From Candidatus Multivorans sp. (lineage in GTDB: Bacteria > Acidobacteriota > Thermoanaerobaculia > Multivoradales > Multivoraceae), in contig OZ242353.1 of NCBI GenBank assembly GCA_965208755.1, positions 4,974,714-5,038,713 of the forward strand: a stretch of DNA of 64,000 bases. Direction: 5' to 3'. Shown one piece after another: positions 1,383-54,158 of this stretch. The notes beneath the pieces were generated by a model. It was not told the origin of the DNA, did no database searches, and saw nothing but the letters and a program-made list of their open reading frames with translations. Position numbers and translations under genes: made by a program. Each line of letters starts with the position of its first letter. Within the stretch, counting starts at the first letter, position 1.

Positions 1383-1383
1383 T

Positions 1384-6760: not shown

Positions 6761-6816
6761 GCGTTGAAGCGTACACCGCTGAATGTCGGTACGATTCGCG
6801 CTCCCGGACTTCCACC

Positions 6817-7953: not shown

Positions 7954-7958
7954 GCGGG

Positions 7959-9041: not shown

Positions 9042-9364
9042 TCCGGGGATACCGCGCTAGTGGTTCGAGAACATCGATAGTTGGACCCGATACAACGGCA
9101 GCGGCTTCACCGGGCCTCGGTGCCGGTCCATCGCTACTGGCACCCTTTCGACCGCACCTCAGTCCGCTGGCGCCGCCGAGTCTATGTCCGCGGCCGGATG
9201 GGTTCCGGGAGTGGACTCGAGATTCATGAAGATGTTGGCGGCAAGCACGCCGTCCGGTCGAGCGCCCGCGGTACGCGACCGTCCTGGGGACTGGGCACAA
9301 GTCGGGAGTCGTCAGCCCGGTGGTCGTGACAAGAGCGACGTAGCACGATACAACGGCACGTTGA

Positions 9365-11391: not shown

Positions 11392-11399
11392 ATGCGAAG

Positions 11400-12983: not shown

Positions 12984-13024
12984 TCTCCAAACCCCGAGGT
13001 TCTCGTGGAGACGCGGCACCAAAC

Positions 13025-14602: not shown

Positions 14603-14605
14603 GGT

Positions 14606-19217: not shown

Positions 19218-19733
19218 TCAATCGCGGCTGGCGGAGGCGTTCGCCGATGGCCAGTCGCCCGCCTGGCAGGGGAAGGCCTGGATGTCGGCTTCGCCCAGCA
19301 GGGCTTCCTCGCCGTCGAATCGCTTCGACCGGTCCGTGGGCACATGCTTCACGGCGACTGTGAACGGTTGGTCGGTCGCCGTGCCGATGTAGACCCACCA
19401 GTGGCCGTTGTACCAGCAGCCGTTCAGCACCTTGATCAGAAGCTCCGGGTTCGTCGGGCTGTAGGCGAACATGAGCCCTGCCTCGTCGGTTCCCGGGAGC
19501 AGCACGCCCGTGGTCGGCACATCGCCCAGGTTGGCCCAGACGTTGAACTTTCCGCCCTGCAGGCAGAGTGGAGCGCGGCACTCTCCCGCGGTCACGGTCT
19601 CGCCGGCCAACGCCGGGGCGCGGGGCGCCTTGGCTCGGGCGCCCTCGCCGGCCGGAAGGGAATTCTGGGCCGCCGCGGGAAGCGCGGCGAGAACCAGGGC
19701 CGCGATACGGCTTCCTCGCATGAGTGTGTTCAT
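19218..19733 (-). CDS. Small secreted protein: a stand-alone, diverged copy of the C-terminal domain of the downstream tandem family
   Basis: Signal peptide (MNTLMRGSRIAALVLAALPAAAQ). Its body aligns to the array's C-domain: CLQGGKFNV…GVLLPGTDEAGLMFAYSPTNPELLIKVLNGCWYNGHWWVYIGTATDQPFTVAVKHV…EADIQAFPC versus CLRDSRFAVEVEW…VVHAGTNDSALFSFFDRANWEVLAKVLDGCAVNGSFWVFAASTTDLEFTIRVTD…DTEAFPGAC. Confidence 0.6.
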   Translation of the reverse strand: MNTLMRGSRIAALVLAALPAAAQNSLPAGEGARAKAPRAPALAGETVTAGECRAPLCLQGGKFNVWANLGDVPTTGVLLPGTDEAGLMFAYSPTNPELLIKVLNGCWYNGHWWVYIGTATDQPFTVAVKHVPTDRSKRFDGEEALLGEADIQAFPCQAGDWPSANASASRD

Positions 19734-19892
19734 CCGACTCCTCGCTGCTCTTGAACTGAACCTGGACAGGCCGGCGCCTTGAACTTCCCCCGGCTCCTTT
19801 CCGGGCGAGGCGCGGATACTATCGAGTACGCCATGTTCCCCGCCCCGGAACGGTTTGTTCGTCATCTTCGTGGCACGGTCGGGCCGGTCTCG

Positions 19893-21179
19893 ATGGCGCC
19901 GTTCTTCCTTGCGCTCGTTGCCGTTTCGGCGATGGGGCATGCCGCCGTTTCGGCGGCGGAATGCGAGAGCGCCTTCGCCCCGACGCCGCTGAGCGTGCCG
20001 GTGACATCGGTGCCCATCGTCGTCCCTTCGACGGCGGGAGACTACTTCGTTCTCTACGTGTCGCACGGGGAGCGGACTCTCCCCGTGTCAGTGACGCGGG
20101 GAAGGGAAGGCGCCACGCCGCTTGCGTGGCCGGTGGAGGGACTGCCGCCCGGACGGTACCGCGTGGAGAAGTACCCGATCTCCGAACCGGGGGACGTGGA
20201 CGGCGACTGCATCGATGATCTCACCGATCCCAACCCGGTGAACCCGGCTGGAGAGATCGCCTTCACGGACGGACTGACCTTGCTGTCGAGTTCCGCGCAG
20301 TGGCGGGCGATCGCTTTCGACGCGCTGCGCGACGGCTGCTCGATGTGCGAGGTCCCTGGCTCCGGAACGGACTGGCTGAAGCTCTCGGTGGACCGCCGGA
20401 ATCCGGTCCGGCCCGGCGTCTACTTCATCAACGCTCCGACCCATTGGGGCCACCCCCACTTCGCGTTCGCTTTGGGTCTGCCGCTGGATCTGATCTCTCT
20501 CGAACTCGACCGGGCCACCGGACTCCCCGGCTTCGCCCCCGACTCGACAACCTACTTCTTCTGGTTTTCCAACCCCGCGGACGCGCTGGATCTTGCCGGG
20601 ATGGTGCCGCTGCTTCACAGCGCGATCGGCGCCAGCATGCCGATCATGCGGGCGGAGGCCGCCGAATCGCGGCTTGCCTACTACGTTCCCGACACGGTCT
20701 GGAACAGAAGGTACTTCGAAGCGATCAGTCCCTGGCTTCCGAGCTACGAGGAGGCCGGGATCAGGGTTCTGGTCGATGGGTCCTTCGTCGACGATGCTCC
20801 CGAGGGCGCCTGCGAGAGCGACGAGACGAGGCGCTGCCTGCGGGATTCCCGTTTCGCGGTCGAGGTGGAGTGGACGGGTCCGGGCGGGACCGCCGGCGCC
20901 GCTCGGGTGGTCCACGCGGGCACGAACGACTCGGCGCTGTTCTCGTTCTTCGACCGGGCGAACTGGGAGGTTCTGGCGAAGGTTCTGGACGGTTGTGCGG
21001 TGAACGGGAGCTTCTGGGTGTTCGCGGCTTCGACGACGGACCTGGAGTTCACGATTCGGGTGACGGACACGGCGACCGGGGTTTCCCGCGCGTACTCGAA
21101 CGAGGCGGGCGCCGCCGCTCCCGCCGTCGCCGACACCGAGGCCTTCCCGGGCGCCTGCGGGAACGGCCGGGGCCGATGA
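19893..21179 (+). CDS. Array gene A. Secreted modular protein, shortest form: signal peptide + conserved N-domain + Cys-flanked C-domain; no linker or PKD.
   Basis: Start taken at MAPFFLALVAVSAMGHA; an upstream alternative exists at 19779. N-domain motifs YFVLYV, RYRVEKY, DVDGDCIDDLTDPNPVNP, INAPTHWGHP, LVPLLHSAI. C-domain CLRDSRFAVEVEW…AFPGACGNGRGR. Its stop overlaps the next ATG (ATGA). Confidence 0.7.
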   Translation: MAPFFLALVAVSAMGHAAVSAAECESAFAPTPLSVPVTSVPIVVPSTAGDYFVLYVSHGERTLPVSVTRGREGATPLAWPVEGLPPGRYRVEKYPISEPGDVDGDCIDDLTDPNPVNPAGEIAFTDGLTLLSSSAQWRAIAFDALRDGCSMCEVPGSGTDWLKLSVDRRNPVRPGVYFINAPTHWGHPHFAFALGLPLDLISLELDRATGLPGFAPDSTTYFFWFSNPADALDLAGMVPLLHSAIGASMPIMRAEAAESRLAYYVPDTVWNRRYFEAISPWLPSYEEAGIRVLVDGSFVDDAPEGACESDETRRCLRDSRFAVEVEWTGPGGTAGAARVVHAGTNDSALFSFFDRANWEVLAKVLDGCAVNGSFWVFAASTTDLEFTIRVTDTATGVSRAYSNEAGAAAPAVADTEAFPGACGNGRGR

Positions 21180-23359
21180 GAGGCGAACGGGCGGCGGGGT
21201 TGCGCGCGGGCCGGCTTCTCCCTTGGGCGCTGGCGACGGCGACGGCCGCCTTCGCCGCCGCCGGCGAGGGCCTGCGGGCGTCGGAATGCGAGGGCGACGG
21301 AACGACTCCGCCGACGCCGACCGCCGTCGCCGTGGAGTCCGTGCCCATCACGGTCCCTTCGACGGCGGCGGAGTACTTCGTGCTCTACGTGACCCACGAC
21401 CTGGGCGACGGCGATGTCCGCGAGGTTCCGGTGTCGGTGACCCGGGGGGAGGAGGGCGCGACGGCGCTCGAGTGGAACCTGTCCGGGCTTCCCGCGTCGA
21501 GGTACCGGGTCGAGAAGTACCGGATCGACGATCCGGGAGACGTGGACGGCGACTGCCGCGACGACCTGACGGACCCGAATCCGGTCAGCCCGGCCCGGGA
21601 GCTCGAATTCTCGGACGGCCTGAATCTGCTGTCGTCGTCCGAGCAGTGGGACGAGATCTACTTCGACGCCGTTCGCGACGGTTGCCCGGAGTGCGAGTTC
21701 TTTGGGCCGGGAACGCGGTACCTGAAGCTGCACGTCGCCCGCCCGGCCTCGCGGCCGCCGGCAATCTACGTCATCAACGCGCGGACCCACTGGGCGCACC
21801 CCATTTTCCGCAGTGCCGTGGGACTGCGAAGCGGCCTGTCGCTCGAGTTGGACAGGGAGACCGGGTTGGCCGGGACCGGGCCGGAGGTGGACACCTACTA
21901 CTGGTGGTTCTCGACCGGGGAGGATGCGGTCGAGTCCGCCGGTCTGGTGCCGTGGCTGCACAGCGCGGTCGCCGCCAGCCTTCCGATCATGCCGGCCGAG
22001 GCGTCGGAGTGGCGGCTTGCCTACTACATCCCGGACATCAAGTGGGACGAGCCGTTCGTCGAGGCGCTCCTGCCCCGGTTGGCCGGCTACGAGGGCGCGG
22101 GGGTTCCCGTTCTGCGCGACCGCTCGTTCAGGGCCGACCTGCCGAACATCTCGGTCTTGAGCGATCAGGAGTCCGTGACGGAGGGGCGGGACGCGACGTT
22201 CACGTTGACGGCGGATCCGCCGCCTCGGGAGGCCCTTGATGTCCTGTTGCAGGTTGTGGAGTCCAGCGGCAGCGACTTCCTGCACCCCGGTCGCAACCGG
22301 GGCTGCGTGGACATCCTGGGCCCCTCGGTCAACTCGGGCTACTGCTGGGTCAAGTTCGAGGCCGATGCCGCGTCCGCCGTCCTGACGATATCGATCGCGG
22401 ACGACGAGGTGAACGGTTCGGACGGTGTCGGGATCGTTTCCGTCGCGAAGTCGTCCGGCTACCTGCTTGGCATACCTCGTTCGGCGCGGGTCTCGGTGGT
22501 CGACAACGATGACGCTCCACCTCCTCCTCCGCCGCCGCCACCGCCGGAATCCGATCCACCGCCTCCTCCTCCTCCTCCTCCTACTACTCCTCCGCCTCCT
22601 ACTCCTCCGCCTCCTCCGGAATCCGATCCGCCGCCGCCCGCCGGTCCGCCGCCCGGGCCGCCGGCGCCCAATCCGGCGCCGGAACCCGAGCCTGAGCCCG
22701 AGCCCGAGCCGGCCGGTCCGCTGAAGGCGGACTTCACGGTGGACGCGGACTGCTCCTCGGATCCGTGCCGGCTGCGGACGGGCGTTCGCGTGGTGTTCTC
22801 GGATTCGAGCGGCGGCCGCGTCGTCGGCCGGCGCTGGAGCTTCGGGGACGGGTCGACGTCCCGCGGGCTGTCGCCGGCGCACGAGTACCGTTCGCCCGGC
22901 TTCTACGAGGTGTCGTTGACGGTGAGCGACGGGACGGAGGAATCGGTGGCGGCCCGCGTCTTCCTGGTGGAGGCCGGCGAGCCCGCCGGCGCCTGCGTGG
23001 GCGGCGCGTCCACCCGCTGCCTGCGGGATTCCCGGTTCGCGGTCGAGGTGGAGTGGACGGGTCCGGGCGGGGCCGCCGGCGCCGCTCGGGTGGTCCACGC
23101 CGGCACGAACGATTCGGCTCTGTTCTCGTTCTTCGACCGGGCGAACTGGGAGGTTCTGGCGAAGGTTCTGGACGGTTGTGCGGTGAACGGGAGCTTCTGG
23201 GTGTTCGCGGCTTCGACGACGGACCTGGAGTTCACGATCCGGGTGATCGACACGGTGACCGGGCGTTCTCGCGCGTACTCGAACGAGGCGGGCGCCGCTC
23301 CCGCCGTCGCCGACACCGAGGCCTTCCCGGGCGCCTGCGGGAACGGCCGGGGCCGATGA
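21176..23359 (+). CDS. Array gene B. Secreted modular protein: N-domain + ~125-aa insert (SDQESVTEGRDATFTLTADPPPREAL…VSVVDNDD) + Pro/PE linker + PKD + C-domain.
   Basis: Begins MRGERAAGLRAGRLLPWALATA (signal). Coupled ATGA junction at both ends. The ORF table extends the frame upstream to 20300, but the conserved start is at 21176. Confidence 0.75.
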   Translation: MRGERAAGLRAGRLLPWALATATAAFAAAGEGLRASECEGDGTTPPTPTAVAVESVPITVPSTAAEYFVLYVTHDLGDGDVREVPVSVTRGEEGATALEWNLSGLPASRYRVEKYRIDDPGDVDGDCRDDLTDPNPVSPARELEFSDGLNLLSSSEQWDEIYFDAVRDGCPECEFFGPGTRYLKLHVARPASRPPAIYVINARTHWAHPIFRSAVGLRSGLSLELDRETGLAGTGPEVDTYYWWFSTGEDAVESAGLVPWLHSAVAASLPIMPAEASEWRLAYYIPDIKWDEPFVEALLPRLAGYEGAGVPVLRDRSFRADLPNISVLSDQESVTEGRDATFTLTADPPPREALDVLLQVVESSGSDFLHPGRNRGCVDILGPSVNSGYCWVKFEADAASAVLTISIADDEVNGSDGVGIVSVAKSSGYLLGIPRSARVSVVDNDDAPPPPPPPPPPESDPPPPPPPPPTTPPPPTPPPPPESDPPPPAGPPPGPPAPNPAPEPEPEPEPEPAGPLKADFTVDADCSSDPCRLRTGVRVVFSDSSGGRVVGRRWSFGDGSTSRGLSPAHEYRSPGFYEVSLTVSDGTEESVAARVFLVEAGEPAGACVGGASTRCLRDSRFAVEVEWTGPGGAAGAARVVHAGTNDSALFSFFDRANWEVLAKVLDGCAVNGSFWVFAASTTDLEFTIRVIDTVTGRSRAYSNEAGAAPAVADTEAFPGACGNGRGR
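22516..22716 (+). repeat. Low-complexity coding repeat in gene B: poly-Pro / ESDPPPP / (PE)n linker. Analogous tracts lie near 25275-25466, 27723-27918, 30181-30425, 32355-32500, 34475-34585, 37120-37320, 39300-39545 and 40745-40830.
   Basis: The ccgcc/cctcc and gagccc/gaaccc triplet repeats are read directly in the sequence. Lengths differ between paralogs. Confidence 0.85.
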
Positions 23360-26112
23360 GAGGCGAACGGGCGGCGGGGTTTCGCGCGGGCCGGCTTCTC
23401 CCTTCGGCGCTGGCGGCGGCGACGGCGATGGCCTTCGCCTCCGCCGGCGTGGGCCTGCGGGCGTCGGAGTGCGAGGACGACGAAACGACTCCGCCGACGC
23501 CGACCGCCGTCGCCGTGGAGTCCGTGCCCGTCACGGTCGCTTCGACGGCGGCGGACTACTTCGTGCTCTACGTGAAGAACGACGTGGGCAACGGCGTTGT
23601 ACGCGAGGTTCCGGTTTCGGTGACCCGGGGAGAGGAGGGCGCGACGACGCTCGAGTGGAACCTGTCCGGGCTTCCCGCGTCGAGATACCGGGTGGAGAAG
23701 TACGGGATCGACGATCCGGGAGACGTGGACGGGGACTGCCGGGACGACCTGGCGGACCCGAATCCGGTGAATCCGGCCCGGGAGCTCGAACTCAGCGACG
23801 GCCTGAATCTGCTGTCGACGTCCGAGCAGTGGAACGCGCTGTACTTCGACACCGTTCGTGACGGTTGCCCGGAGTGCGAGTTCTTCGGGCCGGGAACGCG
23901 GTACCTCAAGCTGCACGTGGCCCGCCCGGCCTCGCGGCCGCCGGCAATCTACGTCATCAACGCGCGGACCCATTGGGCGCACTTCGAGTTCCGCGTTGCC
24001 TTGGGGCTCAAGAGGGACCTGTCGCTCGAGTTGGACAGGGAGACCGGGTTGACCGGGACCGGGCCGGAGGTGGACACCTACTACTGGTGGTTCTCTGATG
24101 CCAAGGATGCGGTCGCCTCCGCCGGTCTGGTGCCGTGGCTGCACGGCGCGATCGCCGCCAACCTTCCGATCATGCCGGCCGAGGCGTCGGAGTGGCGGCT
24201 TGCCTACTACATTCCGGACAGGACGTGGAGGAAGCGCTACATCGATCGGATAACGCCCCGGATAGCCGGTTACGAGCAGGCCGGGGTGCCGGTTTTGCGC
24301 GACGAGTCGTGGGTCGTCGACGTTTCCCTCGAGATGGAGACGGCCGTCGTGGACGAAGGCGGTACGGCGTCTCTTCTGGCGCGGTTGGCGAAGCCGCTGT
24401 CTTCCTCGGTCACCGTGCCGCTGATCGTGGTGGGGGCGGGGACGGCGAACGCCGTGCCCGCTAGCGTCAGGATCAGCGCCGGGATGACGGAGGCGTCGAC
24501 GAGCTTCGCGACGGCGGTCGACGGGGACACGGAGGACGAGATCGTGACCATCGGTTTCGGCGACCTTCCCTGGCAGGTCTCGCCCGGCAGCCCCGCCAGC
24601 GTGACCCTGGCGGTCAGGGACCTGACGCCGGCGGCGACGCTGGCGGTGAAGACCGACTCCTTGGAGGAGGGTTCGTCGACCGAAGTCGAGGTGCTTCTGA
24701 CCAGGGCCTGGACGAGTCCGCTCCTGATTCCCCTGACGACGTCCGGCACGGTGGAGAGCGGCGATTTCACGGTGCCGGCGAGCGTGACGATCGCGGCGGG
24801 GCGGAAGTCGGGAACCGCCGCCGTTTCCGCGGCGCGCGATGCGGACGCGGATGACGAGACGCTGACGGTGTCGCTGGGGACGCTGCCGGAGGAGGTCGCG
24901 CGCGCTTCGCCGGCCGCGGTCGACATCGTGATCCGCGACAGGAATACGGAGGTCACCCTGTCGGCGGCGCCTTCGACGGTGGAGGAGGGTGAGAGCGCGA
25001 CCGTCACCGCGAGCCTGAGCCGGGCGCGGTCCACCGCCGTGGCGATCCCGCTGCTCGTGAACGACGTGGACGCCGAGCCGGGCGACTACGCGGCGCCGTC
25101 GTTCATCGAAGTTGCGCCGAACGCCGTGACGGGCGCCGCGGCCCTTCTGACCGTGGATGACGGGGACCTGGACGACGAGACCTTCACCGTGTCGCTGGGC
25201 GCCGACCTGCCCGAGGGCATGGTCGCCGGCACGCCGGACGCCGTACTCGTGACCATCCGGGACGACGATTCGGCGCCTCCTCCCCCTCCGGAATCCGATC
25301 CGCCGCCGCCGCCACCTCCACCTCCGCCCGCCGATCCTCCTCCGCCCGCCGGCCCGGCGCCGCCGGAGTCCGATCCGCCGCCGCCCGCGCCTCCGCCCGC
25401 CGGCCCGCCGCCTGCTCCTCCCGAATCCGATCCGGCGCCCGAGCCGGAACCCGAGCCCGAACCGGCGGGTCCGCTGAAGGCTGACTTCACGGTGGACGCG
25501 GACTGCTCCTCGGCGCCGTGCCGGCTGCGGACGGGCGTTCGCGTGGTGTTCTCGGATTCGAGCGGCGGCCGCGTCGTCGGCCGGCGCTGGAGCTTCGGGG
25601 ACGGGTCGACGTCCCGCGGGCTGTCGCCGGCGCACGAGTACCGTTCGCCCGGCTTCTACGAGGTGTCGTTGACGGTGAGCGACGGGACGGAGGAATCGGT
25701 GGCGACTCGCGTCTTCCTGGTGGAGGCCGGCGAGCCCGCCGGCGCCTGCGTGGGCGGCGCGTCCGTCCGCTGCCTGCGGGATTCCCGGTTCGCGGTCGAG
25801 GTGGAGTGGACGGGTCCGGGCGGGGCCGCCGGCGCCGCTCGGGTGGTCCACGCCGGCACGAACGATTCGGCTCTGTTCTCGTTCTTCGACCGGGCGAACT
25901 GGGAGGTTCTGGCGAAGGTTCTGGACGGTTGTGCGGTGAACGGGAGCTTCTGGGTGTTCGCGGCTTCGACGACGGACCTGGAGTTCACGATCCGGGTGAC
26001 GGACACGGCGACCGGGGTTTCCCGCGCGTACTCGAACGAGGCGGGCGCCGCTCCCGCCGTCGCCGACGCGGAGGCGTTTCCGGGCGCCTGCGGGCGCCGC
26101 CGGGGCCGATGA
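23356..26112 (+). CDS. Array gene C. Long form: N-domain + 4 Calx-beta-like repeats + Pro/PE linker + PKD + C-domain.
   Basis: Conserved MRGERAAGFRAGRLLP start at the ATGA junction. Calx-beta-like segments end in …VTLAVRDL, …VDIVIRD and …VLVTIRDDD. Confidence 0.75.
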   Translation: MRGERAAGFRAGRLLPSALAAATAMAFASAGVGLRASECEDDETTPPTPTAVAVESVPVTVASTAADYFVLYVKNDVGNGVVREVPVSVTRGEEGATTLEWNLSGLPASRYRVEKYGIDDPGDVDGDCRDDLADPNPVNPARELELSDGLNLLSTSEQWNALYFDTVRDGCPECEFFGPGTRYLKLHVARPASRPPAIYVINARTHWAHFEFRVALGLKRDLSLELDRETGLTGTGPEVDTYYWWFSDAKDAVASAGLVPWLHGAIAANLPIMPAEASEWRLAYYIPDRTWRKRYIDRITPRIAGYEQAGVPVLRDESWVVDVSLEMETAVVDEGGTASLLARLAKPLSSSVTVPLIVVGAGTANAVPASVRISAGMTEASTSFATAVDGDTEDEIVTIGFGDLPWQVSPGSPASVTLAVRDLTPAATLAVKTDSLEEGSSTEVEVLLTRAWTSPLLIPLTTSGTVESGDFTVPASVTIAAGRKSGTAAVSAARDADADDETLTVSLGTLPEEVARASPAAVDIVIRDRNTEVTLSAAPSTVEEGESATVTASLSRARSTAVAIPLLVNDVDAEPGDYAAPSFIEVAPNAVTGAAALLTVDDGDLDDETFTVSLGADLPEGMVAGTPDAVLVTIRDDDSAPPPPPESDPPPPPPPPPPADPPPPAGPAPPESDPPPPAPPPAGPPPAPPESDPAPEPEPEPEPAGPLKADFTVDADCSSAPCRLRTGVRVVFSDSSGGRVVGRRWSFGDGSTSRGLSPAHEYRSPGFYEVSLTVSDGTEESVATRVFLVEAGEPAGACVGGASVRCLRDSRFAVEVEWTGPGGAAGAARVVHAGTNDSALFSFFDRANWEVLAKVLDGCAVNGSFWVFAASTTDLEFTIRVTDTATGVSRAYSNEAGAAPAVADAEAFPGACGRRRGR

Positions 26113-37966: not shown

Positions 37967-40209
37967 GAGGCGAACGGGCGGTTGGGTTGGGCGGGGGCCG
38001 GCTTCTCCCTTGGGCGCTGGCGGTGGCGGCGATGGCGGCCGCCACCGGCAATTTGTGGGGGGGGGGGGAATGTGAGGACGACGGCTCGACTCCGCCGACG
38101 CCGACCGCCGTCGCCGTGGAGTCCGTGCCCATCACGGTCTCTTCGACGGCGGCGGAGTACTTCGTGCTCTACGTGACCCACGACCTGGGCGACGGCGATG
38201 TCCGCGAGGTTCCGGTGTCGGTGACCCGCGGGGGGGAGGGCGAGACGACGCTTGAGTGGAGCCTGTCCGGGCTTCCGGCGTCGAGATACCGGGTCGAGAA
38301 GTACCGGATCGACGATCCGGGAGACGTGGACGGCGACTGCCGCGACGACCTGACGGACCCGAATCCGGTCAATCCGGCCCGGGAGATTGAACTCGCGGAC
38401 GGCCTGAATCTGCTGTCGACGTCCGAGCAGTGGAACGAGATCTACTTCGACGCCGCTCGCGATCGTTGCGGGGGGTGCGAGTTCTTCGGGCCGGGAACGC
38501 GGTACCTCAAGGTGCACGTCGCCCGCTCGGCCTCGCGGCCGCCTGCGATCTACTTCATCAACGCGGGGACTCACGCGCTGCACATCAAGTTCCGGGGCGC
38601 CGTGGGGCTGGGAAGCGGCGTTTCGCTCGAGCTGGACAGGGAGACCGGGTTGGCCGGGACCGGCCCGGAGGTGGACACCTACTACTGGTGGTTCTCGCGT
38701 CCTCAGGAGGCGGTCGCGTCCGCCGGTCTGGTGCCCTGGCTGCACAGCGCGGTCGCCGCCAGCCTGCCGATCATGGCGGCCGATGCGTCGGAGTGGCGGC
38801 TCGCCTACTACATCCCGGACACCAGGTGGCAGGAGCCGACCGTCGAGGCGCTCCTGCCCCGGTTGGCCGGCTACGAGGGAGCGGGGGTTCCCGTTCTGCG
38901 GGACCGTTCGTTCGACGCCGACCTGCCGAACATCTCGGTTTCGAGCGATCGGGAGTCCGTGACGGAGGGGCGGGAGGCGACTTTCACGTTCACCGCGGAT
39001 CCGCCGCCTCGGGAGGCCCTTGAAGTCCTGTTCCAGGTCGTGGAATCCAGCGGCAGCGACTTCCTGCGCCCCGGTCGCAACCAGGTCTGCGACGACTTCC
39101 TGGGCGCCGAGCGCAACGCGGGCTACTGCTGGCTCAGGTTCGAGGCCGATGCCGCGTCCGCCGTCCTGACGATACCGACCGTGGACGACGACGTGGACGG
39201 ATCGGACGGTGTCGGGATCGTCTCCGTCGCGAAGTCGTCCGGCTACCTGCTCGGCATGCCTCGTTCGGCGCGGGTCTCGGTGGTCGACAACGATGACGCT
39301 CCTCTTCCTCCACCTCCTCCTCCGCCGCCGCCGGAATCCGATCCTCCTCCGCCGCCGCCACCGCCGGAATCCGATCCACCGCCTCCTCCTCCTCCTCCTC
39401 CTCCGCCTCCTCCGGAATCCGATCCGCCGCCGCCCGCCGGTCCGCCGCCCGGGCCGCCGGCGCCCAATCCGGCGCCGGAACCCGAGCCTGAGCCCGAGCC
39501 TGAACCTGAACCCGAGCCTGAACCCGAGCCCGAGCCGGCCGGTCCGCTGAAGGCGGACTTCACGGTGGAGGCGGACTGCTCCTCGGATCCGTGCCGGCTG
39601 CGGACGGGCGTTCGCGTGGTGTTCTCGGATTCGAGCGGCGGCCGCGTCGTCGGCCGGCGCTGGAGCTTCGGGGACGGGTCGACGTCCCGCGGGCTGTCGC
39701 CGGCGCACGAGTACCGTTCGCCCGGCTTCTACGAGGTGTCGTTGACGGTGAGCGACGGGACGGAGGAATCGGTGGCGACTCGCGTCTTCCTGGTGGAGGC
39801 CGGCGAGCCCGCCGGCGCCTGCGTGGGCGGCGCGTCCGTCCGCTGCCTGCGGGATTCCCGGTTCGCGGTCGAGGTGGAGTGGACGGGTCCGGGCGGGGCC
39901 GCCGGCGCCGCTCGGGTGGTCCACGCCGGCACGAACGATTCGGCTCTGTTCTCGTTCTTCGACCGGGCGAACTGGGAGGTTCTGGCGAAGGTTCTGGACG
40001 GTTGTGCGGTGAACGGGAGCTTCTGGGTGTTCGCGGCTTCGACGACGGACCTGGAGTTCACGATCCGGGTGACGGACACGGCGACCGGGGTTTCCCGCGC
40101 GTACTCGAACGAGGCGGGCGCCGCCGCCGCCGTCACCGACACGGAGGCCTTCCCGGGCGCCTGTGCCGTTCGGCGAAACCAGGCGCTCGGGCAGGGAGCA
40201 GGCCCCTGA
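37963..40209 (+). CDS. Array gene I. Medium form; last canonical member.
   Basis: Same architecture. The C-terminus ends …AFPGACAVRRNQALGQGAGP rather than GNGRGR, because no coupled gene follows. Confidence 0.75.
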   Translation: MRGERAVGLGGGRLLPWALAVAAMAAATGNLWGGGECEDDGSTPPTPTAVAVESVPITVSSTAAEYFVLYVTHDLGDGDVREVPVSVTRGGEGETTLEWSLSGLPASRYRVEKYRIDDPGDVDGDCRDDLTDPNPVNPAREIELADGLNLLSTSEQWNEIYFDAARDRCGGCEFFGPGTRYLKVHVARSASRPPAIYFINAGTHALHIKFRGAVGLGSGVSLELDRETGLAGTGPEVDTYYWWFSRPQEAVASAGLVPWLHSAVAASLPIMAADASEWRLAYYIPDTRWQEPTVEALLPRLAGYEGAGVPVLRDRSFDADLPNISVSSDRESVTEGREATFTFTADPPPREALEVLFQVVESSGSDFLRPGRNQVCDDFLGAERNAGYCWLRFEADAASAVLTIPTVDDDVDGSDGVGIVSVAKSSGYLLGMPRSARVSVVDNDDAPLPPPPPPPPPESDPPPPPPPPESDPPPPPPPPPPPPPESDPPPPAGPPPGPPAPNPAPEPEPEPEPEPEPEPEPEPEPAGPLKADFTVEADCSSDPCRLRTGVRVVFSDSSGGRVVGRRWSFGDGSTSRGLSPAHEYRSPGFYEVSLTVSDGTEESVATRVFLVEAGEPAGACVGGASVRCLRDSRFAVEVEWTGPGGAAGAARVVHAGTNDSALFSFFDRANWEVLAKVLDGCAVNGSFWVFAASTTDLEFTIRVTDTATGVSRAYSNEAGAAAAVTDTEAFPGACAVRRNQALGQGAGP

Positions 40210-40315
40210 CGGGAGCGCGATGGAGCGCGGGCAGTGTAAGATGCGGCCGGGAGAGAGCCCTCGGGCGGATGGCGCCGTGCAGATCGTTGATGACAGTTCT
40301 TTCGGCCGCCAGGAC

Positions 40316-41470
40316 ATGAGGGCCGGCGATCCCGGATGGAGAGGCGGGAGGGCCGCGGGTCTGCTGTGCGCTCTGGCGCTGGTTGTCGTTCCGGCCGATG
40401 GCCAGCGGTCCGCGATAGAGGTCTTCGGCGGCGGCGCGGTCACGGAAGGGATGCCCGCCGTGTTCACGGTGACCGCCAATCCCGCCCCGGTTTCGGACCT
40501 CGCCGTGACCGTCTTCGTCAATGACGATTTCACGAGCGACTTCGTTGCCGAGAGCGACGAGGGCATGAAGGTGCTCACGATTCGTGCCGGCGAATCGGCG
40601 GCGGTCTGGTCCGTGCCGACCGTCGACGACGCCGAGGAGGAAGCGGACGGCATCGTGGAACTGTTTCCCTGGCCGGGTGGAGGCGACTACGACCTGGGGC
40701 CGACGCACGAGGCCAGCATTGTCGTGAGGGACAACGATTCACCAGGGGGTGTGCCTCCTCCTCCTCCTCCTCCTCCTCCTCCTCCGCCCGAGCCGGAGCC
40801 CGAGCCGGAGCCCGAGCCCGAGCCGGTCGGTCCGCTGGAGGCGGACTTCGCGGTGGAGGGCGCCGACTGTTCCTCGGATCCGTGCCGGCTGCTGACGGGC
40901 GTTCGCGTGGCCTTTTCCGACTTGAGCAGCGGCGGCGTCATCGATTGGCTCTGGAGCTTCGGGGACGGGGAGACGTCCCGGAGGTCGTCGCCGGTTTACG
41001 AGTATCGTTCGCCGGGCTTCTACGAGGTGTCGTTGACGGTGAGCGACGGGACCGAGGAATCGGTGGCGACCCGCGTCTTTCTGGTGGATCCCGGCGAGCC
41101 CGAGGGCGTTTGCGCGGGCGACGCGGCCACCCGCTGTCTGCGGAACTCCCGGTTCGCGGTCGAGGTGGAGTGGAGGGGGCCGGACGGAACCGTCGGCGAC
41201 GGGCGGGTGGTCCACGCCGGCACGAACGATTCGGCGCTGTTCTCGTTCTTCGACCCGACGAACTGGGAGGTGCTGGTCAAGGTTCTGGACGGTTGCCGGG
41301 TGAACCGCGGCTTCTGGGTGTTCGCCGCGTCGACGACGGACCTGGAGTTCACGATCCGGGTGACCGATACGGTGACCGGGTTTTCTCGCGCGTACTCGAA
41401 CGAGGCGGGCGTCGCCGCCCCCGCCGTCACCGACACCGAAGCCTTCCTGAGAGCCTGTGCCAGCCGCTAG
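40316..41470 (+). CDS. Array gene J. Diverged member without the N-domain: signal peptide + Calx-beta-like domain + P/PE linker + PKD + C-domain.
   Basis: Start taken at MRAGDPGWRGGRAAGLLCALALVVVPA; the ORF is open upstream to 40163. C-domain is CLRNSRFAVEVEWRGPDG…AFLRACASR, about 80% identical to the canonical copies. Confidence 0.65.
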   Translation: MRAGDPGWRGGRAAGLLCALALVVVPADGQRSAIEVFGGGAVTEGMPAVFTVTANPAPVSDLAVTVFVNDDFTSDFVAESDEGMKVLTIRAGESAAVWSVPTVDDAEEEADGIVELFPWPGGGDYDLGPTHEASIVVRDNDSPGGVPPPPPPPPPPPPEPEPEPEPEPEPVGPLEADFAVEGADCSSDPCRLLTGVRVAFSDLSSGGVIDWLWSFGDGETSRRSSPVYEYRSPGFYEVSLTVSDGTEESVATRVFLVDPGEPEGVCAGDAATRCLRNSRFAVEVEWRGPDGTVGDGRVVHAGTNDSALFSFFDPTNWEVLVKVLDGCRVNRGFWVFAASTTDLEFTIRVTDTVTGFSRAYSNEAGVAAPAVTDTEAFLRACASR

Positions 41471-44144
41471 GACGCGTCGACCGAGCTTGAGCGCGGCCCG
41501 CGGCCGCGGCCTTCTGCTGCTTGCGGCGGGCCTTGCGGCCGCGCCGGCCGTCGGCGAGCCCGAGGCCTGTCCGACGCCGGGCGGCGCGCCGGCGCCCGAG
41601 GCGGTCCCGGTCACGGCGACGCCTATCCGGGTCGCTTCGGCGCCGACGGACTACTTCGTCCTCTACGCCGGCCACGAGGTCTCGGGCGAAGAGCGCGAGG
41701 TTCCGGTCGCGGTCGTCCGCGGGCAGGCCGGCACGACGACGCTTGGAGAGAACGTCGCCGCGCTGCCGGTCTCGCGCTATCGTGTGGAGAAGTACCGGGT
41801 TGGCGATCCGGCGGACGTGGATGGCGACTGCATCGACGATCTCGCCGACTCCAACCCGGTCAACGCCGCGCCCCCGATCGACCCGGTCGACGGCGCCGTG
41901 CTGCTCGAGGACGCCGCCAGCTTCGAGGCCCTGGCCTTCGATCACCCCCAGACCGGCAACTCGTACCTCAAGCTGCTGGTGTTCGACTGGGAAACCGATC
42001 GCCCCGGCGTCTACTTTCAGAACGCGAAGACCCATCCCGGCCACTTCACGTTCGCGGCGAAGATAGGGCGATCGCTGAACGAGATCATCGCCTTCGAACT
42101 GGACTACGACCCGAATCTCGTCGCCCCGGACGGAACCCGCGGCGTCTACTACTACTACTGGTCCCTTCTTCAGGACGCGCGGTTCGCCGATCTCGTTCCC
42201 TGGTTCCACACCGTGCTCGCGGCCAGCATGCCGTTGATCGACGACAACCTGGCCTTCTACGTTCCGAACTCGCTGCTTCCGCACGTGCAGCCCTGGCTGT
42301 CGGCCTGGAGCGCTTCCCGAGTGCGGCTTCTGTTCGAGGACGACCTGTCAGGCCCCGACGCCGACTTCGTCGCGCTGAATCCGGGCGTTGGGCTGGGCCT
42401 GCTGCGCGCGCTGGAACCGGACGAACGGCCCCATCCTCGCGATATCGGGCTCTACGAGACGCTGCCCAACGAGCTGCCGCGGCTGGCTGGCATCATCAGC
42501 GCGACGCCGCAGACGCCCTTGTCCCATGTCAATCTCAGGGCCATTCAGAGCGGCATTCCCAATGCCTACGTTCGCGGCGCGCTGGAGGACCCGGACATCG
42601 ACTCGCTGCTCGACAGCTACGTCCGCTACACGGTTACCGCGGACGGCTGGTCGCTGCGCGAGGCGACGGTCGAAGAGGTGCTCGACCACTACGCCGACTC
42701 CCGTCCGCCGGCGCCGCAAACGCCCGAAAGGGATCTGTCGGTTCGGGAGATCGCGCCACTCCGCCGCGTGTCCTTCGACGACTGGGATGCGTTCGGCGTC
42801 AAGGCCGCGAACGTCGCGGAACTGGGCCGGCTCGGCTTTCCGCCCGGGACGGTCCCCGAGGGGTTCGCCATTCCCTTCGCGTTCTACGACGAGTTCATGA
42901 AGGCGAACGGCCTGTACGACGAGGTCCGGGAGATGTTGGCGGAACCCGGATTCAGCGGCGACTTCGATCTCCAGGAGAAGCGCCTGAAGGACCTCCGTTC
43001 GAGAATCCGGAAAGCCGAGACGGCGGAGTGGATGATCGAGGCGCTGCGGGAGATGCACGCTTCCTGGCCGGACAGCGACCAGTCTCTGCGCTATCGGTCG
43101 AGTACGAACAACGAGGACCTTCCCGGCTTCAATGGCGCCGGGCTCTACGATTCCTACACGCAGCACCCGGAGGAGACGGTCGAAGACGGGATCGACAAAT
43201 CGCTCAAGCAGGTGTTCTCGAGTCTCTGGAACTTCCGCGCGTTCACGGAGCGCGAGTTCTTCCGCATCGATCATCTGGAGGCGGCGATGGGGGTGCTGGT
43301 CCACCCCAACTTCGAGGACGAACGGGCGAACGGGGTGGCCGTCAGTTTCGATCCATTCTTCGGGCGGCCCACTCACTACTACGTGAACACGCAGCTCGGA
43401 GAGGATCTCGTCACGAATCCGGAAGCGCGTTCGGTGCCCGAGGAACTTCTCCTGTCGAAGACGGGAACGGGCGACGATCTCTTCGTCGTCCTGGCCCTCT
43501 CCAACCTGGCGCCGCCCGGGGAGCTTCTGATGAGCGAGAGCCAGCTCGATCAGTTGCGCCGGCACCTCTCGACGATTCACGACCACTTCCAAAGTCTCTA
43601 CGGTCCTGCTCCAGGCGAGCGCTTCGCCATGGAGATCGAATTCAAGATCACGAAGGACGACGTTCTCTCGATCAAGCAGGCGCGTCCCTGGGTCTTCGGG
43701 ACCGGGGTTGACGGCGAGCCGCCGCCGCCGGACGGCGCCTGCGTGGCCGACGACGTGACGCTCTGTCTCCTGAACTCCCGTTTCGCGGTCACGGTGGAAT
43801 GGTCGAACCCGGAAGGCCGGCAGGGGCCGGGCTTTGCCGTTCATGAAGGAACCGGCGATTCCGGCCTGTTCCGGTTCTTCGACTCCGAGAACTGGGAAGT
43901 GCTGATCAAGGTGCTCGACGGCTGCGAGGCGAACGGACGAGCGTGGGTGTTCGCGGCATCGACGACGGATCTCGGCCTCGTGATTCGCGTCGAGGACACG
44001 GCGCCGGGTTCGACGGATCCTCCCCGGGAGTACGCGAGCCGGCCGGGAACCGCGGCGCCGGCGATCACGGACACCGCCGCTTTCCGGGATGTTTGCCGTG
44101 GGCGCGACGAGCTCGGACAGGTCGTCGCCGCCGCCGGACACTGA
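41457..44144 (+). CDS. Array gene K. Chimeric secreted protein: family N-domain (diverged) + PEP-utilizer mobile-domain-like segment + PPDK_N-like (PEP/pyruvate-binding, ATP-grasp) domain + family C-domain (diverged).
   Basis: N-domain motifs retained (YFVLYAGHEV, RYRVEKYRVGDPADVDGDCIDDLADSNPVN, YLKLLVFDW, LVPWFHTVLAASMPL). LPRLAGIISATPQTPLSHVNLRAIQSGIPNAYVRGA resembles the PEP-utilizers swivel domain. LRYRSSTNNEDLPGFNGAGLYDSY matches the PPDK_N VRSSATAEDLP motif. C-terminus is CLLNSRFAVTVEWSNPEG…WEVLIKVLDGC…AFRDVC. Confidence 0.7.
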   Translation: MPAARTRRPSLSAARGRGLLLLAAGLAAAPAVGEPEACPTPGGAPAPEAVPVTATPIRVASAPTDYFVLYAGHEVSGEEREVPVAVVRGQAGTTTLGENVAALPVSRYRVEKYRVGDPADVDGDCIDDLADSNPVNAAPPIDPVDGAVLLEDAASFEALAFDHPQTGNSYLKLLVFDWETDRPGVYFQNAKTHPGHFTFAAKIGRSLNEIIAFELDYDPNLVAPDGTRGVYYYYWSLLQDARFADLVPWFHTVLAASMPLIDDNLAFYVPNSLLPHVQPWLSAWSASRVRLLFEDDLSGPDADFVALNPGVGLGLLRALEPDERPHPRDIGLYETLPNELPRLAGIISATPQTPLSHVNLRAIQSGIPNAYVRGALEDPDIDSLLDSYVRYTVTADGWSLREATVEEVLDHYADSRPPAPQTPERDLSVREIAPLRRVSFDDWDAFGVKAANVAELGRLGFPPGTVPEGFAIPFAFYDEFMKANGLYDEVREMLAEPGFSGDFDLQEKRLKDLRSRIRKAETAEWMIEALREMHASWPDSDQSLRYRSSTNNEDLPGFNGAGLYDSYTQHPEETVEDGIDKSLKQVFSSLWNFRAFTEREFFRIDHLEAAMGVLVHPNFEDERANGVAVSFDPFFGRPTHYYVNTQLGEDLVTNPEARSVPEELLLSKTGTGDDLFVVLALSNLAPPGELLMSESQLDQLRRHLSTIHDHFQSLYGPAPGERFAMEIEFKITKDDVLSIKQARPWVFGTGVDGEPPPPDGACVADDVTLCLLNSRFAVTVEWSNPEGRQGPGFAVHEGTGDSGLFRFFDSENWEVLIKVLDGCEANGRAWVFAASTTDLGLVIRVEDTAPGSTDPPREYASRPGTAAPAITDTAAFRDVCRGRDELGQVVAAAGH

Positions 44145-47100: not shown

Positions 47101-47220
47101 GATTTGGAGGATGATCTCGGACTCGCGGTCCCACGTCTGCGCCGCCGCGGCGGGGCAGAGGACAGCGAGTAGCGCGACAACGGTGCCCTGCAGACCGTGC
47201 CGCGAGCAGGTGGAGGTCAT
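44188..47220 (-). CDS. Large secreted von Willebrand factor A (VWA) domain protein
   Basis: 1010 aa. Signal peptide. C-terminal VWA/MIDAS-like region (LVLGLAVDSSQSM…ALVVLTDGDDQGS…). Confidence 0.65.
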   Translation of the reverse strand: MTSTCSRHGLQGTVVALLAVLCPAAAAQTWDRESEIILQIPAPGPLRQLDAGSVELLENGASRKILSVEPVAERWRIVIYFDLPGSTPEGIEAAAGAVGDAAEALVALGDVEMIVADRIAEVELAPTANAGAVRTAAAAVATRAGAAGVLLDRRRDLRAAADARSGDPDADALRTADLLEGVLLELDTLRWQRANLLESIEGATWADGPPRALFLVRDATDLNADAFAQELLGEPTPAFERAALSEQRRQRSLTRTVAALGWRVYSLQLAPAAQEVDGLLPGRLESAEAFAHAAGGEALADGAELAAAIERLQASWRIRYRSSGTRDGAAYPIDVRIASTAGSGEPPPEVAARRWATVAAPADLAALRASRALDALSRDGDRSSLAGNGQLAIRGVLLPQGIQSATEGAPAEFVTLDGLATVTDPPPSSDALRLTVYGRGLDSPAFLLHRAGNGTRLRGGAWRFRTLFDLPVAIDELVLMVEDLRNDRWRVEFLETASNPLDDRGDVELLVPETGAGSLAATPTEAEILQAARAAARRAGWTGGSRGPRRANLLDPGPGSSLVRLIPPRGERSGLSGRKSFSTVTTSDVVRRVEFYLDGEQVFDDRRKPFQTTIDLGPEAVPHTIRIVAYDRSDRWLSEDELTINEHRTRAGVGIAAVEEGPGGRYAVEAQVELAGGRVLDRVEFYRNDRLAATLTRPPFRTVLPGPALPGADFARVAVYLDDGTIIEDVEFLSADTPMAETVVNLVEVYVVVNDAEGKPITTLEPDDFVLRAGRREIPIERFAVAEDVPLVLGLAVDSSQSMWALMPDTRQAAARFLGNTLTRIDQAFVVDFDSRPRLLSDTTADVAELIGTLGKIQADGFTALYDAIQFSLVHLARDQGRRALVVLTDGDDQGSQSGYRRTFRTAGNTGVPIYVISMSQPEVPGARGPRKLDLEAITKASGGRVYYVASMEAVFRAYGHIGEELRSQYMLGYSTSEPLTPREVQAIKVEPRDERNDREVRMTVGRGRG

Positions 47221-50193: not shown

Positions 50194-50206
50194 AGGCAAA
50201 CGGCCG

Positions 50207-51685: not shown

Positions 51686-51722
51686 CGTTCTGCTCCTTCG
51701 ACTCCTAGTCGAGGCGGGTCTC

Positions 51723-54119: not shown

Positions 54120-54158
54120 GGTGTGGCGATCCTATCGCGGCGTTAGACTTCCGGCCTC

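What the first reader, a model, noticed from the sequence alone, without database searches (positions are those of the whole stretch)
19218..44144. 25-kb head-to-tail array of 11 paralogous secreted modular proteins sharing a conserved N-domain and a Cys-flanked C-domain
Eleven co-oriented genes (A-K). Each has a signal peptide and a conserved ~300-aa N-module (YFVLYV, RYRVEKY, THWGHP, LVPWLHSAIAA). Variable Calx-beta-like inserts follow: 0, 1 or 4 copies. Then come a hypervariable poly-Pro/(PE)n linker, a PKD domain (RWSFGDGSTSRGLSPAHEYRSPGFYEVSLTVSDG) and a ~115-aa C-terminal domain (CLRDSRFAVEVEW…NWEVLAKVLDGC…AFPGAC). I could not assign the N- or C-domain to any family I know. The N-domain shows localized hypervariation, for example the loop CPECEFFGPG / CPGCFFHGPG / CSMCEVPGSG / CKPCFFHGPG / CGACEFFGPG. 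The termini are kept near-identical. This is the pattern expected of a diversifying surface or adhesin-like or cargo family with a shared sorting or binding module.
Basis: seen in the sequence. Interest (0 to 1): 0.85.

Follow-up and report, generated by a model that had tools for sequence, protein, structure and literature searches.

The report
Secreted paralog array derived from dikinase
A real 25-kb tandem array of secreted modular proteins whose "orphan" N-terminal module is the substrate-side domain of a large, uncharacterised family of secreted ATP-dependent dikinases; nine copies have lost the kinase and probably act as diversified binding proteins.

Summary
The array is real, with corrections. 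Genes A-I (19833-40209, + strand) overlap by ATGA and share a signal peptide, a ~280-aa N-module and a ~120-aa four-Cys C-domain. J lacks the N-module. K has N-module, His domain, PPDK_N ATP-grasp and C-domain, without PKD. Insert copies are 0, 1, 2 or 3, not 4. A twelfth gene on the minus strand (19221-19733) is a signal peptide plus a lone C-domain.

The C-domain is a separate module seen mainly in Acidobacteriota, always at the C-terminus and often doubled.

The 5' and 3' ends are homogenised and the gene bodies are mosaic. A second genome has the same layout, so the array is not an assembly artefact. Function is inferred, not shown.

The parts
19221..19733 (-). Divergently oriented small gene (171 aa): signal peptide plus a single divergent C-domain (CLQGGKFNV...LLIKVLNGC...AFPC).
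   Evidence: tblastn with the C-domain gives 35% identity, E 1.6e-14. Translation and start codon. No Pfam hit.
19833..21179 (+). Gene A (448 aa): signal peptide, N-module, then C-domain directly, with no insert, linker or PKD.
   Evidence: Identical to public protein P0001. N-module DNA is only 62-64% identical to B-I, while the C-domain is 92-97% identical.
21176..23359 (+). Gene B (727 aa): signal peptide; N-module 21293-22150; one type-1 Calx/LapA-like repeat ~22130-22520; 67-aa Pro-rich linker; PKD 22715-22987; C-domain 22973-23356.
   Evidence: AlphaFold models of the N-module (pLDDT 90.2) and C-domain (pLDDT 91.6).
23356..26112 (+). Gene C (918 aa): N-module, three type-2 LapA-like repeats, linker, PKD, C-domain.
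   Evidence: PF20579 LapA scores 31.1 bits (cut-off 27) with 3 stretches.
26109..28565 (+). Gene D (818 aa): N-module, two type-2 repeats, linker, PKD, C-domain.
28562..31072 (+). Gene E (836 aa): N-module, two type-2 repeats, 82-aa linker, PKD, C-domain.
31069..33144 (+). Gene F (691 aa): N-module, one shortened type-1 repeat, linker, PKD, C-domain.
33141..35231 (+). Gene G (696 aa): N-module, one type-1 repeat, 39-aa linker, PKD, C-domain.
35228..37966 (+). Gene H (912 aa): N-module, three type-2 repeats, linker, PKD, C-domain.
37963..40209 (+). Gene I (748 aa): N-module, one type-1 repeat, 81-aa linker, PKD, C-domain with a different C-terminal tail.
40316..41470 (+). Gene J (about 384 aa; start codon uncertain): signal-like N-terminus, one type-1 repeat, 29-aa linker, PKD, C-domain. 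It has no N-module.
41487..44144 (+). Gene K (885 aa from TTG 41487; an upstream GTG at 41457 is also possible): signal peptide; N-module ~41589-42269; His domain 42357-42776 with candidate catalytic His347 (nt 42525-42527) in QTPLSHVNLRA; PPDK_N ATP-grasp 42777-43736; C-domain 43728-44105. This is the canonical member of the dikinase family.
   Evidence: PF01326 scores 92.9 bits. PEP synthase and rifampin phosphotransferase models match partially. PDB PEP synthase ATP-grasp alignment with conserved RSSxxxED...AG. Public protein P0321. Domain coordinates; His position.

Best explanation
Shown. This is a genuine tandem gene family in a high-GC (~70%) bacterium. The closest named relatives of its proteins are Holophagales and Thermoanaerobaculia (Acidobacteriota) MAGs. 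Genes A-I are packed stop-on-start (ATGA) and probably form one transcription unit.

Shown. The N-module is an Ig-like beta-sandwich, an Asp-rich DVDGDCxDDLxDPNPVNP loop and an alpha/beta subdomain. It is the N-terminal domain of a large family of signal-peptide-bearing enzymes with the layout N-module, ~130-aa His domain, PPDK_N ATP-grasp. Gene K, at the 3' end of the array, is such an enzyme.

Inferred. This is the domain order of glucan, water dikinase (acceptor domain, then His domain, then ATP domain). K-type proteins would therefore use ATP to phosphorylate the swivelling His, then pass the phosphate to an acceptor held by the N-module. The acceptor is probably a polymer or glycan.

Inferred. 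A-I arose by duplication of the N-module without the His and ATP domains. They have replaced residues that are strongly conserved in K-type proteins (R309 to G, D235 to G, E100 to W, D154, G236, G239, S308, D317). They keep a core set (K184, Y198, N201, H208, Y241). I therefore read them as non-catalytic, ligand-binding derivatives. Each is held on a stalk of LapA/Calx-like repeats, a 39-82-aa poly-Pro/(PE)n linker and a PKD domain.

The C-domain is a disulfide-type beta-sandwich that is always at the extreme C-terminus. It is shared with hundreds of unrelated secreted proteins, mainly from Acidobacteriota. I infer that it tethers or targets them to a common envelope or matrix component.

Shown. 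Recombination between copies keeps the 5' third and the PKD and C-domain end nearly identical. It makes the alpha/beta subdomain a mosaic whose most variable residues flank the invariant His208. Inferred: this yields a panel of binding specificities on a constant scaffold.
For: - Gene structure and motifs.
- The N-module profile finds 824 clusters at 50% identity (356 below 1e-30), mostly in 1000-3700-aa proteins.
- All 7 such proteins tested have the N-module about 130 aa upstream of PPDK_N.
- In about 70 of 78 genome loci the N-module is directly followed by regions 52-69% (His) and 57-73% (ATP-grasp) identical to K.
- Among 182 N-module proteins fetched, 134 carry the kinase. Only 9 are N-module plus C-domain without it, and 5 of those are from this window.
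- The K-type core has at least 1570 clusters at 90% identity.
- The His region has invariant QTPLSHVNLRA. Its only Pfam signal is PF22973, the GWD1 phosphohistidine-like domain (E 0.037, 2 of 12 members).
- The GWD domain order comes from PMC13553574.
- The ATP-grasp motifs are intact.
- K-type-conserved residues are lost in A-I while others are kept.
- LapA repeat hit. Linkers.
- C-domain: 943 hits, on M10 peptidases, fn3, PKD, TolB-like and BNR proteins. The median tail after it is 1 aa, and 40 of 120 hits have two copies.
- Concerted evolution and mosaicism.
- L079, 47-50% identical, has at least 5 tandem N...PKD-C paralogs followed by a K-type gene.
Against: - No biochemical or expression data exist.
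- The His-domain assignment rests on position, an invariant His motif and one weak Pfam hit. A profile search of PDB sequences found nothing and PF00391 was not hit.
- An ATP-dependent enzyme behind a signal peptide has no obvious ATP supply outside the cytoplasm.
- The residues kept in A-I could be structural rather than a binding site.
- dN/dS of 0.4-1.35 does not prove diversifying selection.
- Model coordinates could not be inspected, so the spatial clustering of the variable residues is untested.
Confidence: 0.5

Rival explanations
1. The C-domain is a secretion or sorting signal, analogous to the T9SS C-terminal domain, for a so-far undescribed outer-membrane translocation or attachment pathway in these Acidobacteriota. 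A-K are simply cargo that share it. The high conservation of the 3' end then reflects recognition by that machinery.
For: The domain is always at the extreme C-terminus, with a median 1-aa tail. It sits on many unrelated cargo types, including M10 peptidases, fn3, TolB-like and BNR proteins. Named hits are mainly diderm Acidobacteriota. K-type proteins of Chloroflexota and other phyla showed no C-domain in the tblastn scan and carry fn3, LRR or PKD domains instead. It is usually preceded by a PKD or Ig domain, as many T9SS CTDs are. The proteins have only a Sec signal and need some route across the outer membrane.
Against: There is no hit to any known sorting-domain model in Pfam or NCBIfam, and no structural match to the RgpB CTD. 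Tandem double copies are frequent, 40 of 120 (P0006, P0009, P0014). A signal-peptide-plus-C-domain-only gene sits next to the array. Both are odd for a pure export tag. The four conserved Cys suggest a stable extracytoplasmic domain. No candidate machinery is encoded in the window.
Confidence: 0.3
2. A-I are still catalytic parts. They would be alternative acceptor modules that work in trans with the His and ATP-grasp domains of K, as a split dikinase with nine substrate specificities.
For: A K-type gene closes the array in two divergent genomes. K184, Y198, N201, H208 and Y241 are conserved in both A-I and K-type proteins. The genes are packed stop-on-start (A-I) or separated by short gaps (I-J, J-K), which suggests co-expression.
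Against: Known swivelling-His dikinases need the acceptor, His and ATP domains in one chain or one tight complex (PMC13553574). A-I have lost eight residues that are 86-98% conserved in K-type proteins, including R309. They carry long stalks typical of displayed binding proteins. K has its own N-module.
Confidence: 0.1
3. The array is chiefly a variation system. Recombination among silent-like copies changes an exposed surface protein to evade phage, predators or host recognition. The biochemical ancestry of the N-module would be irrelevant.
For: The nearest-neighbour pattern along the genes is mosaic. The ends are homogenised around a variable core. Variable patches reach dN/dS of about 1-1.35. 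Linker lengths vary.
Against: All copies are complete ORFs with their own start codon and signal peptide, packed as one unit, rather than one expression site plus silent cassettes. No invertase, recombinase or reverse transcriptase was noticed among the flanking genes tested. Divergence is also high at synonymous sites, so the variable core is old rather than hypermutated.
Confidence: 0.12
4. The array is an assembly artefact, a collapsed or expanded repeat.
For: The PKD and C-domain segments are long (about 650 nt) and 92-99.6% identical, so they could mislead short-read assemblers.
Against: The copies differ by 9-19% in the N-module and have four different insert architectures. The proteins are on a 5.07-Mb public contig. 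An independent assembly of a different organism, L079, has the same layout.
Confidence: 0.02

Closest known systems
Alpha-glucan, water dikinase / phosphoglucan, water dikinase (plant GWD1, PWD; EC 2.7.9.4 and 2.7.9.5)
   Same: K and the about 1570 K-type clusters have the same order of functional domains: acceptor-side domain, then a ~120-130-aa His domain, then a C-terminal PPDK_N ATP-grasp (PMC13553574). The only Pfam signal for the His region is the GWD1 phosphohistidine-like domain PF22973 (E 0.037). From my memory of the GWD and PWD sequences, not checked here, their catalytic motif LSHV/LxVRAR resembles the invariant LSHVNLRA.
   Different: There are no CBM45 or CBM20 modules and no homologue of the GWD central domain. 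The acceptor-side N-module is a different, unmatched fold. These proteins carry signal peptides and surface-type domains (fn3, LRR, PKD, cadherin), whereas plant GWDs are plastidial. The acceptor is unknown.
PEP synthase / pyruvate phosphate dikinase / rifampin phosphotransferase (PEP-utilising swivelling-His enzymes)
   Same: The ATP-grasp domain is homologous (PF01326 92.9 bits; PDB PEP synthases down to 1.7e-15 and rifampin phosphotransferase entries 5fbs/5hv1-5hv3 about 7e-9 with the family profile). The conserved RSSxxxED...AG motif is present.
   Different: The domain order is permuted: in those enzymes the ATP-grasp is N-terminal. PF00391 and PEP-utilizers_C do not match. The third domain is unrelated.
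LapA / Calx-beta repeat adhesins and other tandem families of modular surface proteins
   Same: A-J carry LapA-type repeats (PF20579, 31.1 bits), Pro-rich spacers and PKD domains. Repeat number varies between paralogs.
   Different: They have Sec signal peptides at the N-terminus and no RTX or T1SS C-terminal signal (sequence inspection). At 450-920 aa they are much smaller than LapA-class adhesins. Their head domain derives from an enzyme family.
T9SS C-terminal sorting domain (Por_Secre_tail) and pre-peptidase C-terminal domains
   Same: The C-domain is a small all-beta domain at the extreme C-terminus of many different secreted enzymes, in hits mainly from one lineage, often after PKD or Ig domains.
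   Different: There is no sequence or structural match. It has four conserved Cys. It often occurs as two tandem copies, and once as a stand-alone secreted protein.

Membership tests
Swivelling-His dikinases (GWD/PWD, PPDK, PEP synthase, rifampin phosphotransferase): applies to gene K | PPDK_N-type ATP-grasp nucleotide-binding domain | tested here: met
   PF01326 at 92.9 bits, against a cut-off of 27, on residues 446-744. Family profile against PDB PEP synthase gives 1.7e-15. The RSSxxxED motif aligns.
Swivelling-His dikinases: applies to gene K | Phosphohistidine (swivel) domain with a catalytic His | tested here: inconclusive
   A ~130-aa region lies between the N-module and the ATP-grasp and has invariant QTPLSHVNLRA. 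The only hit is PF22973 GWD1_pHisD at E 0.037, in 2 of 12 members. There is no PF00391 hit and no PDB sequence hit.
Glucan, water dikinase (GWD/PWD) specifically | Domain order acceptor/central domain, then His domain, then C-terminal ATP domain | tested here: met
   Order seen in K and in about 70 of 78 loci. GWD1 order taken from PMC13553574.
Glucan, water dikinase (GWD/PWD) specifically | Starch-binding CBM45/CBM20 modules and the GWD central domain | tested here: not met
   No Pfam hit on the N-module at E up to 5, in 29 members. No PDB sequence or fold match.
Swivelling-His dikinases | ATP to AMP plus Pi plus phospho-acceptor stoichiometry through a phospho-His intermediate | not testable with these tools
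   Needs an enzyme assay.
Swivelling-His dikinases: applies to genes A-I | Presence of His and ATP domains | tested here: not met
   A-I have no His or ATP-grasp region. Eight K-type-conserved N-module residues are replaced.
T9SS C-terminal sorting domain | Match to Por_Secre_tail models (PF18962 / TIGR04183) or fold similarity to the RgpB CTD | tested here: not met
T9SS C-terminal sorting domain | Host genome encodes T9SS machinery (PorU, PorV, Sov and others) | not tested
   Only a 64-kb window is available. None was seen among the flanking genes scanned.
PKD domain | Match above the Pfam gathering score | tested here: met
   PF18911 at 50-52 bits and PF00801 at 39-42 bits in B, C and J. K shows no PKD match in the Pfam scan or in tblastn.
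LapA / Calx-beta-type adhesin repeats (inserts) | Match above the Pfam gathering score | tested here: inconclusive
   The type-2 repeats of C score 31.1 bits on PF20579 LapA, against a cut-off of 27, with 3 stretches. The type-1 repeat of B reaches only E 0.16, and J has no hit. Calx-beta (PF03160) appears only as a 'faint' precomputed hit on homologues in L079.
RTX/T1SS giant adhesins | C-terminal RTX repeats or T1SS signal, and no N-terminal signal peptide | tested here: not met
   By sequence inspection, there are N-terminal Sec-type signals and no GGxGxD nonapeptides.

The most novel reading that the evidence does not exclude
K-type proteins would be a new class of exported glycan or polymer, water dikinases that symbiotic bacteria of marine sponges from at least four phyla share by horizontal transfer. 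They would phosphorylate a host or matrix polymer, or act inside host cells where ATP is available. The A-I array would be a lineage-specific expansion of catalytically dead, lectin-like derivatives that bind the same polymer with diversified specificity. The four-Cys C-domain would be a new envelope-anchoring or sorting module of Acidobacteriota. Together they would form a previously unrecognised host-interaction system built on two folds with no recognisable relative among solved structures.
Probability: 0.2. Interest if true: 0.85.

Novelty: new variant of a known kind. Interest (0 to 1): 0.62.

Why it matters
Three things would follow if the reading holds.

1. A family of at least 1570 protein clusters would be identified as secreted dikinases with a new acceptor domain. 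The family has no name, Pfam model or structure. It is spread over Chloroflexota, Latescibacterota, Acidobacteriota and Actinomycetota MAGs, at about 60-70% identity across phyla. Many of these MAGs belong to sponge-associated lineages. That gives a concrete, testable candidate for a shared symbiosis function.

2. The array shows an enzyme domain being turned into a multi-copy, recombining family of binding proteins, next to its parent enzyme. The arrangement is conserved in two genomes.

3. The C-domain is a candidate new C-terminal anchoring or sorting module for diderm Acidobacteriota, whose protein export to the surface is poorly understood.

Both modules are compact, predicted with high confidence and easy to express, so the open questions can be tested directly.

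Tried and rejected
- Pfam and NCBIfam scans of whole proteins and of isolated N-, C-, His and insert regions found nothing for the N- and C-domains, even at E up to 5-10.
- Profile searches of PDB sequences with the N-, C- and His-region alignments found nothing meaningful.
- The AFDB50 library was unavailable.
- Sigma-70 promoter and intrinsic terminator scans gave no usable signal in this 70% GC DNA.
- The source record could not be retrieved by exact-protein look-up or cluster look-up, so the organism is inferred from relatives only.
- Literature searches for a secreted bacterial water dikinase, or for PPDK_N in sponge symbionts, found nothing relevant.
- I first took the many 130-240-aa C-domain hits as stand-alone proteins. 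On inspection most are gene fragments, so that argument was dropped. The signal-peptide-bearing gene in the window remains.
- Assembly artefact was rejected.
- Clear-cut positive selection was rejected, because dS is also high in the variable half.
- Diversity-generating retroelement mutagenesis was considered, but no scan for a reverse transcriptase or template repeat was run. It is not needed to explain the pattern.

Full report
**1. What is in the sequence**

The window is about 70% GC. On the + strand, eleven long ORFs run head to tail from 19833 to 44144. Genes A-I overlap by the four bases ATGA, so each stop codon sits on the next start codon. J starts after a 106-nt gap. In the public annotation, K starts at a TTG 16 nt after J.

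It also corrects the anatomy:
- A-I have a signal peptide and a ~280-aa N-module.
- A then goes straight into the C-domain.
- B, F, G and I have one "type-1" repeat. D and E have two "type-2" repeats. C and H have three. There are never four.
- B-J then have a 29-82-aa linker that is 58-67% proline and ends in (PE)n. After it come a PKD domain (PF18911, 50-52 bits) and a ~120-aa C-domain with four conserved Cys.
- J has no N-module.
- K has the N-module and the C-domain, but between them lies a PPDK_N ATP-grasp (PF01326, 92.9 bits) preceded by a ~130-aa region.
- A twelfth member lies on the minus strand at 19221-19733, diverging from A. It is a signal peptide plus a divergent stand-alone C-domain.

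**2. How the copies evolve**

- N-module DNA is 81-91% identical among B-I, and only 62-64% between A and the others. PKD is 96-99.6% identical. The C-domain is 92-98% identical, including A's copy. A's N-module and C-domain therefore have very different histories, which is the signature of concerted evolution or module exchange at the 3' end.
- Within the N-module, the first ~130 codons are nearly identical even at synonymous sites (dS about 0-0.15). Codons 160-310 have dS 0.2-0.67, dN 0.1-0.37 and dN/dS 0.4-1.35.
- The most variable columns cluster around the invariant His208 (THWxHxxFRxxxxL), at ~246-251 and at ~284-296, in addition to the CxxC loop.
- The nearest paralog changes along the gene. 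G, for example, is closest to H, then F, then I, then C. The copies are recombinant mosaics.
- The pattern is homogenised ends with an older, mosaic, relaxed core. It is not demonstrable positive selection.

**3. The N-module is not an orphan**

However, several searches link it to a large enzyme family:
- A profile search of 1.84 billion representative proteins finds 824 clusters, 356 below 1e-30, mostly in proteins of 1000-3700 aa.
- All seven such proteins scanned have the N-module about 130 aa upstream of PPDK_N, followed by fn3, LRR or PKD domains.
- In 78 genome loci, about 70 have the N-module directly followed by sequence 52-69% and 57-73% identical to K's middle region and ATP-grasp.
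- Of 182 N-module proteins fetched, 134 carry the kinase. Nine are N-module plus C-domain without kinase, and five of those are from this window.
- A search with K itself gives at least 1570 clusters at 90% identity, about 60% identical over the N-His-ATP core. None carries a name.

K is therefore the canonical form, and A-I are a rare derived form.

**4. What the canonical enzyme looks like**

- The ATP-grasp aligns with PEP synthase and rifampin phosphotransferase, including the RSSxxxED...AG motif.
- The region before it has an invariant QTPLSHVNLRA. Its only Pfam signal is the phosphohistidine-like domain of glucan, water dikinase (PF22973; E 0.037 in 2 of 12 members). That is weak.
- The order acceptor-side domain, then His domain, then ATP domain is the order in potato GWD1: central domain, His domain at residues 931-1050, ATP domain at 1069-1387 (PMC13553574). 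It is the reverse of PEP synthase and the rifampin enzyme.
- I therefore read K-type proteins as swivelling-His dikinases whose acceptor is held by the N-module. They are not GWD family members. They have no CBM45 and no GWD central domain, and the acceptor is unknown.
- They carry signal peptides, which raises an unsolved problem of ATP supply.

**5. What A-I have lost and kept**

The comparison used 120 K-type N-modules.
- A-I keep the sandwich core, the Asp-rich loop, and K184, P195, Y198, N201, H208, Y241, A266/A267 and P270.
- All nine have replaced E100 (W), D154 (S/T), D235 (G in B-I, A in gene A), G236 (P/S), G239 (D; T in A, E in F), S308 (A), R309 (G; 98% conserved in K-type) and D317 (S/A).
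- Losing the His and ATP domains together with these residues fits a non-catalytic derivative that retains the fold and possibly the ligand site.
- The stalk (LapA-type repeats at 31.1 bits; long poly-Pro spacers; PKD) is what displayed binding proteins usually have.

This step is inference.

**6. The C-domain**

- A profile search finds 943 proteins.
- Examples carry it after M10 peptidases, fn3, PKD, proprotein-convertase P domains, TolB-like propellers and BNR repeats.
- It always ends the protein, with a median of 1 residue after it. Forty of 120 hits have two tandem copies.
- Named hits are mostly Holophagales and Thermoanaerobaculia MAGs.
- This distribution fits either an anchoring or binding module, or a sorting signal. 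Tandem copies and the stand-alone gene beside the array favour the former. Strict C-terminal position on diverse cargo, in hits mainly from one diderm lineage, favours the latter. I could not decide between them.

**7. Not an artefact, and conserved**

An independent metagenome contig (L079, 488 kb, 47-50% identity) has at least five tandem N...PKD-C genes followed by a K-type gene with PKD and C-domain. A HicAB pair is inserted in that array. A more distant relative (L080) has a single copy.

**8. Habitat hint**

The genomes carrying K-type genes include Ca. Poriferisodalis, Ca. Poriferisocius, Ca. Aldehydirespirator, Ca. Versatilivorator, Ca. Multivorans and SB06xx_bin MAGs.
- The families of Ca. 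Poriferisodalis and Ca. Aldehydirespirator are described as clades in a sponge-symbiosis study (PMC11706023).
- SB06xx bins are listed among sponge Entoporibacteria (PMC7883664).
- The high identity of the kinase core across four phyla suggests horizontal spread within that habitat.
- This association was not tested statistically, and the source of the present window could not be retrieved.

**9. Verdict**

The interpretation, a diversifying secreted family with a shared C-terminal module, is partly supported. The main addition is that the family derives from, and sits beside, a member of a very large uncharacterised family of secreted dikinases. Function is inferred from architecture only.

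Noticed in passing
window 44188-47220 (-) and 47227-50547 (-): Two adjacent large paralogous proteins (1010 and 1106 aa) with Big_7 Ig-like and C-terminal VWA domains lie immediately downstream of the array on the opposite strand. They may be another secreted or surface pair.
   Followed up: partly
window 50207-54131 (-): A DUF1501 gene lies next to a PSCyt1/DUF1549/DUF1553 gene. I recall this pairing as typical of Planctomycetes-like genomes. Its role here is unknown.
   Followed up: no
L013 10001-19362; also L023, L027, L030, L031, L061, L066: K-type dikinase genes themselves occur as tandem duplicates. There are three in a row in one Dehalococcoidia MAG and two within about 10 kb in several others. 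Local amplification is therefore a general habit of the family.
   Followed up: partly
L001-L078: The His and ATP-grasp core of K is 52-73% identical to homologues in Chloroflexota, Latescibacterota, Actinomycetota and Acidobacteriota MAGs, while the B N-module used as the tblastn query is only 31-46% identical (up to 57% over short partial matches). K's own N-module was not compared. This cross-phylum conservation suggests horizontal transfer among co-habiting bacteria.
   Followed up: partly
L079 5981-6393: A HicA/HicB toxin-antitoxin pair is inserted between two paralogs of the homologous array in the second genome.
   Followed up: no
L053 (Ca. Multivorans sp., OZ244152.1) 306-15186: A K-type gene with PKD and C-domain is surrounded by three further genes with C-domains, two of them PKD plus C-domain, on both strands. 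This looks like a neighbourhood enriched in C-domain proteins.
   Followed up: no
window 21176-40209, upstream reading frames: Each gene's ORF extends about 600 nt upstream, in another frame, through the preceding gene's PKD and C-domain region. These long overlapping ORFs are by-products of high GC and not genes, but they could mislead ORF-based annotation.
   Followed up: yes
P0050, P0053, P0055, P0056: The first ~100 residues of the N-module (Ig-like sandwich plus Asp-rich loop) match on their own in several short proteins that also carry an fn3 Pfam domain. Whether these gene calls are complete was not checked, so independent mobility of this sub-module is only a possibility.
   Followed up: no
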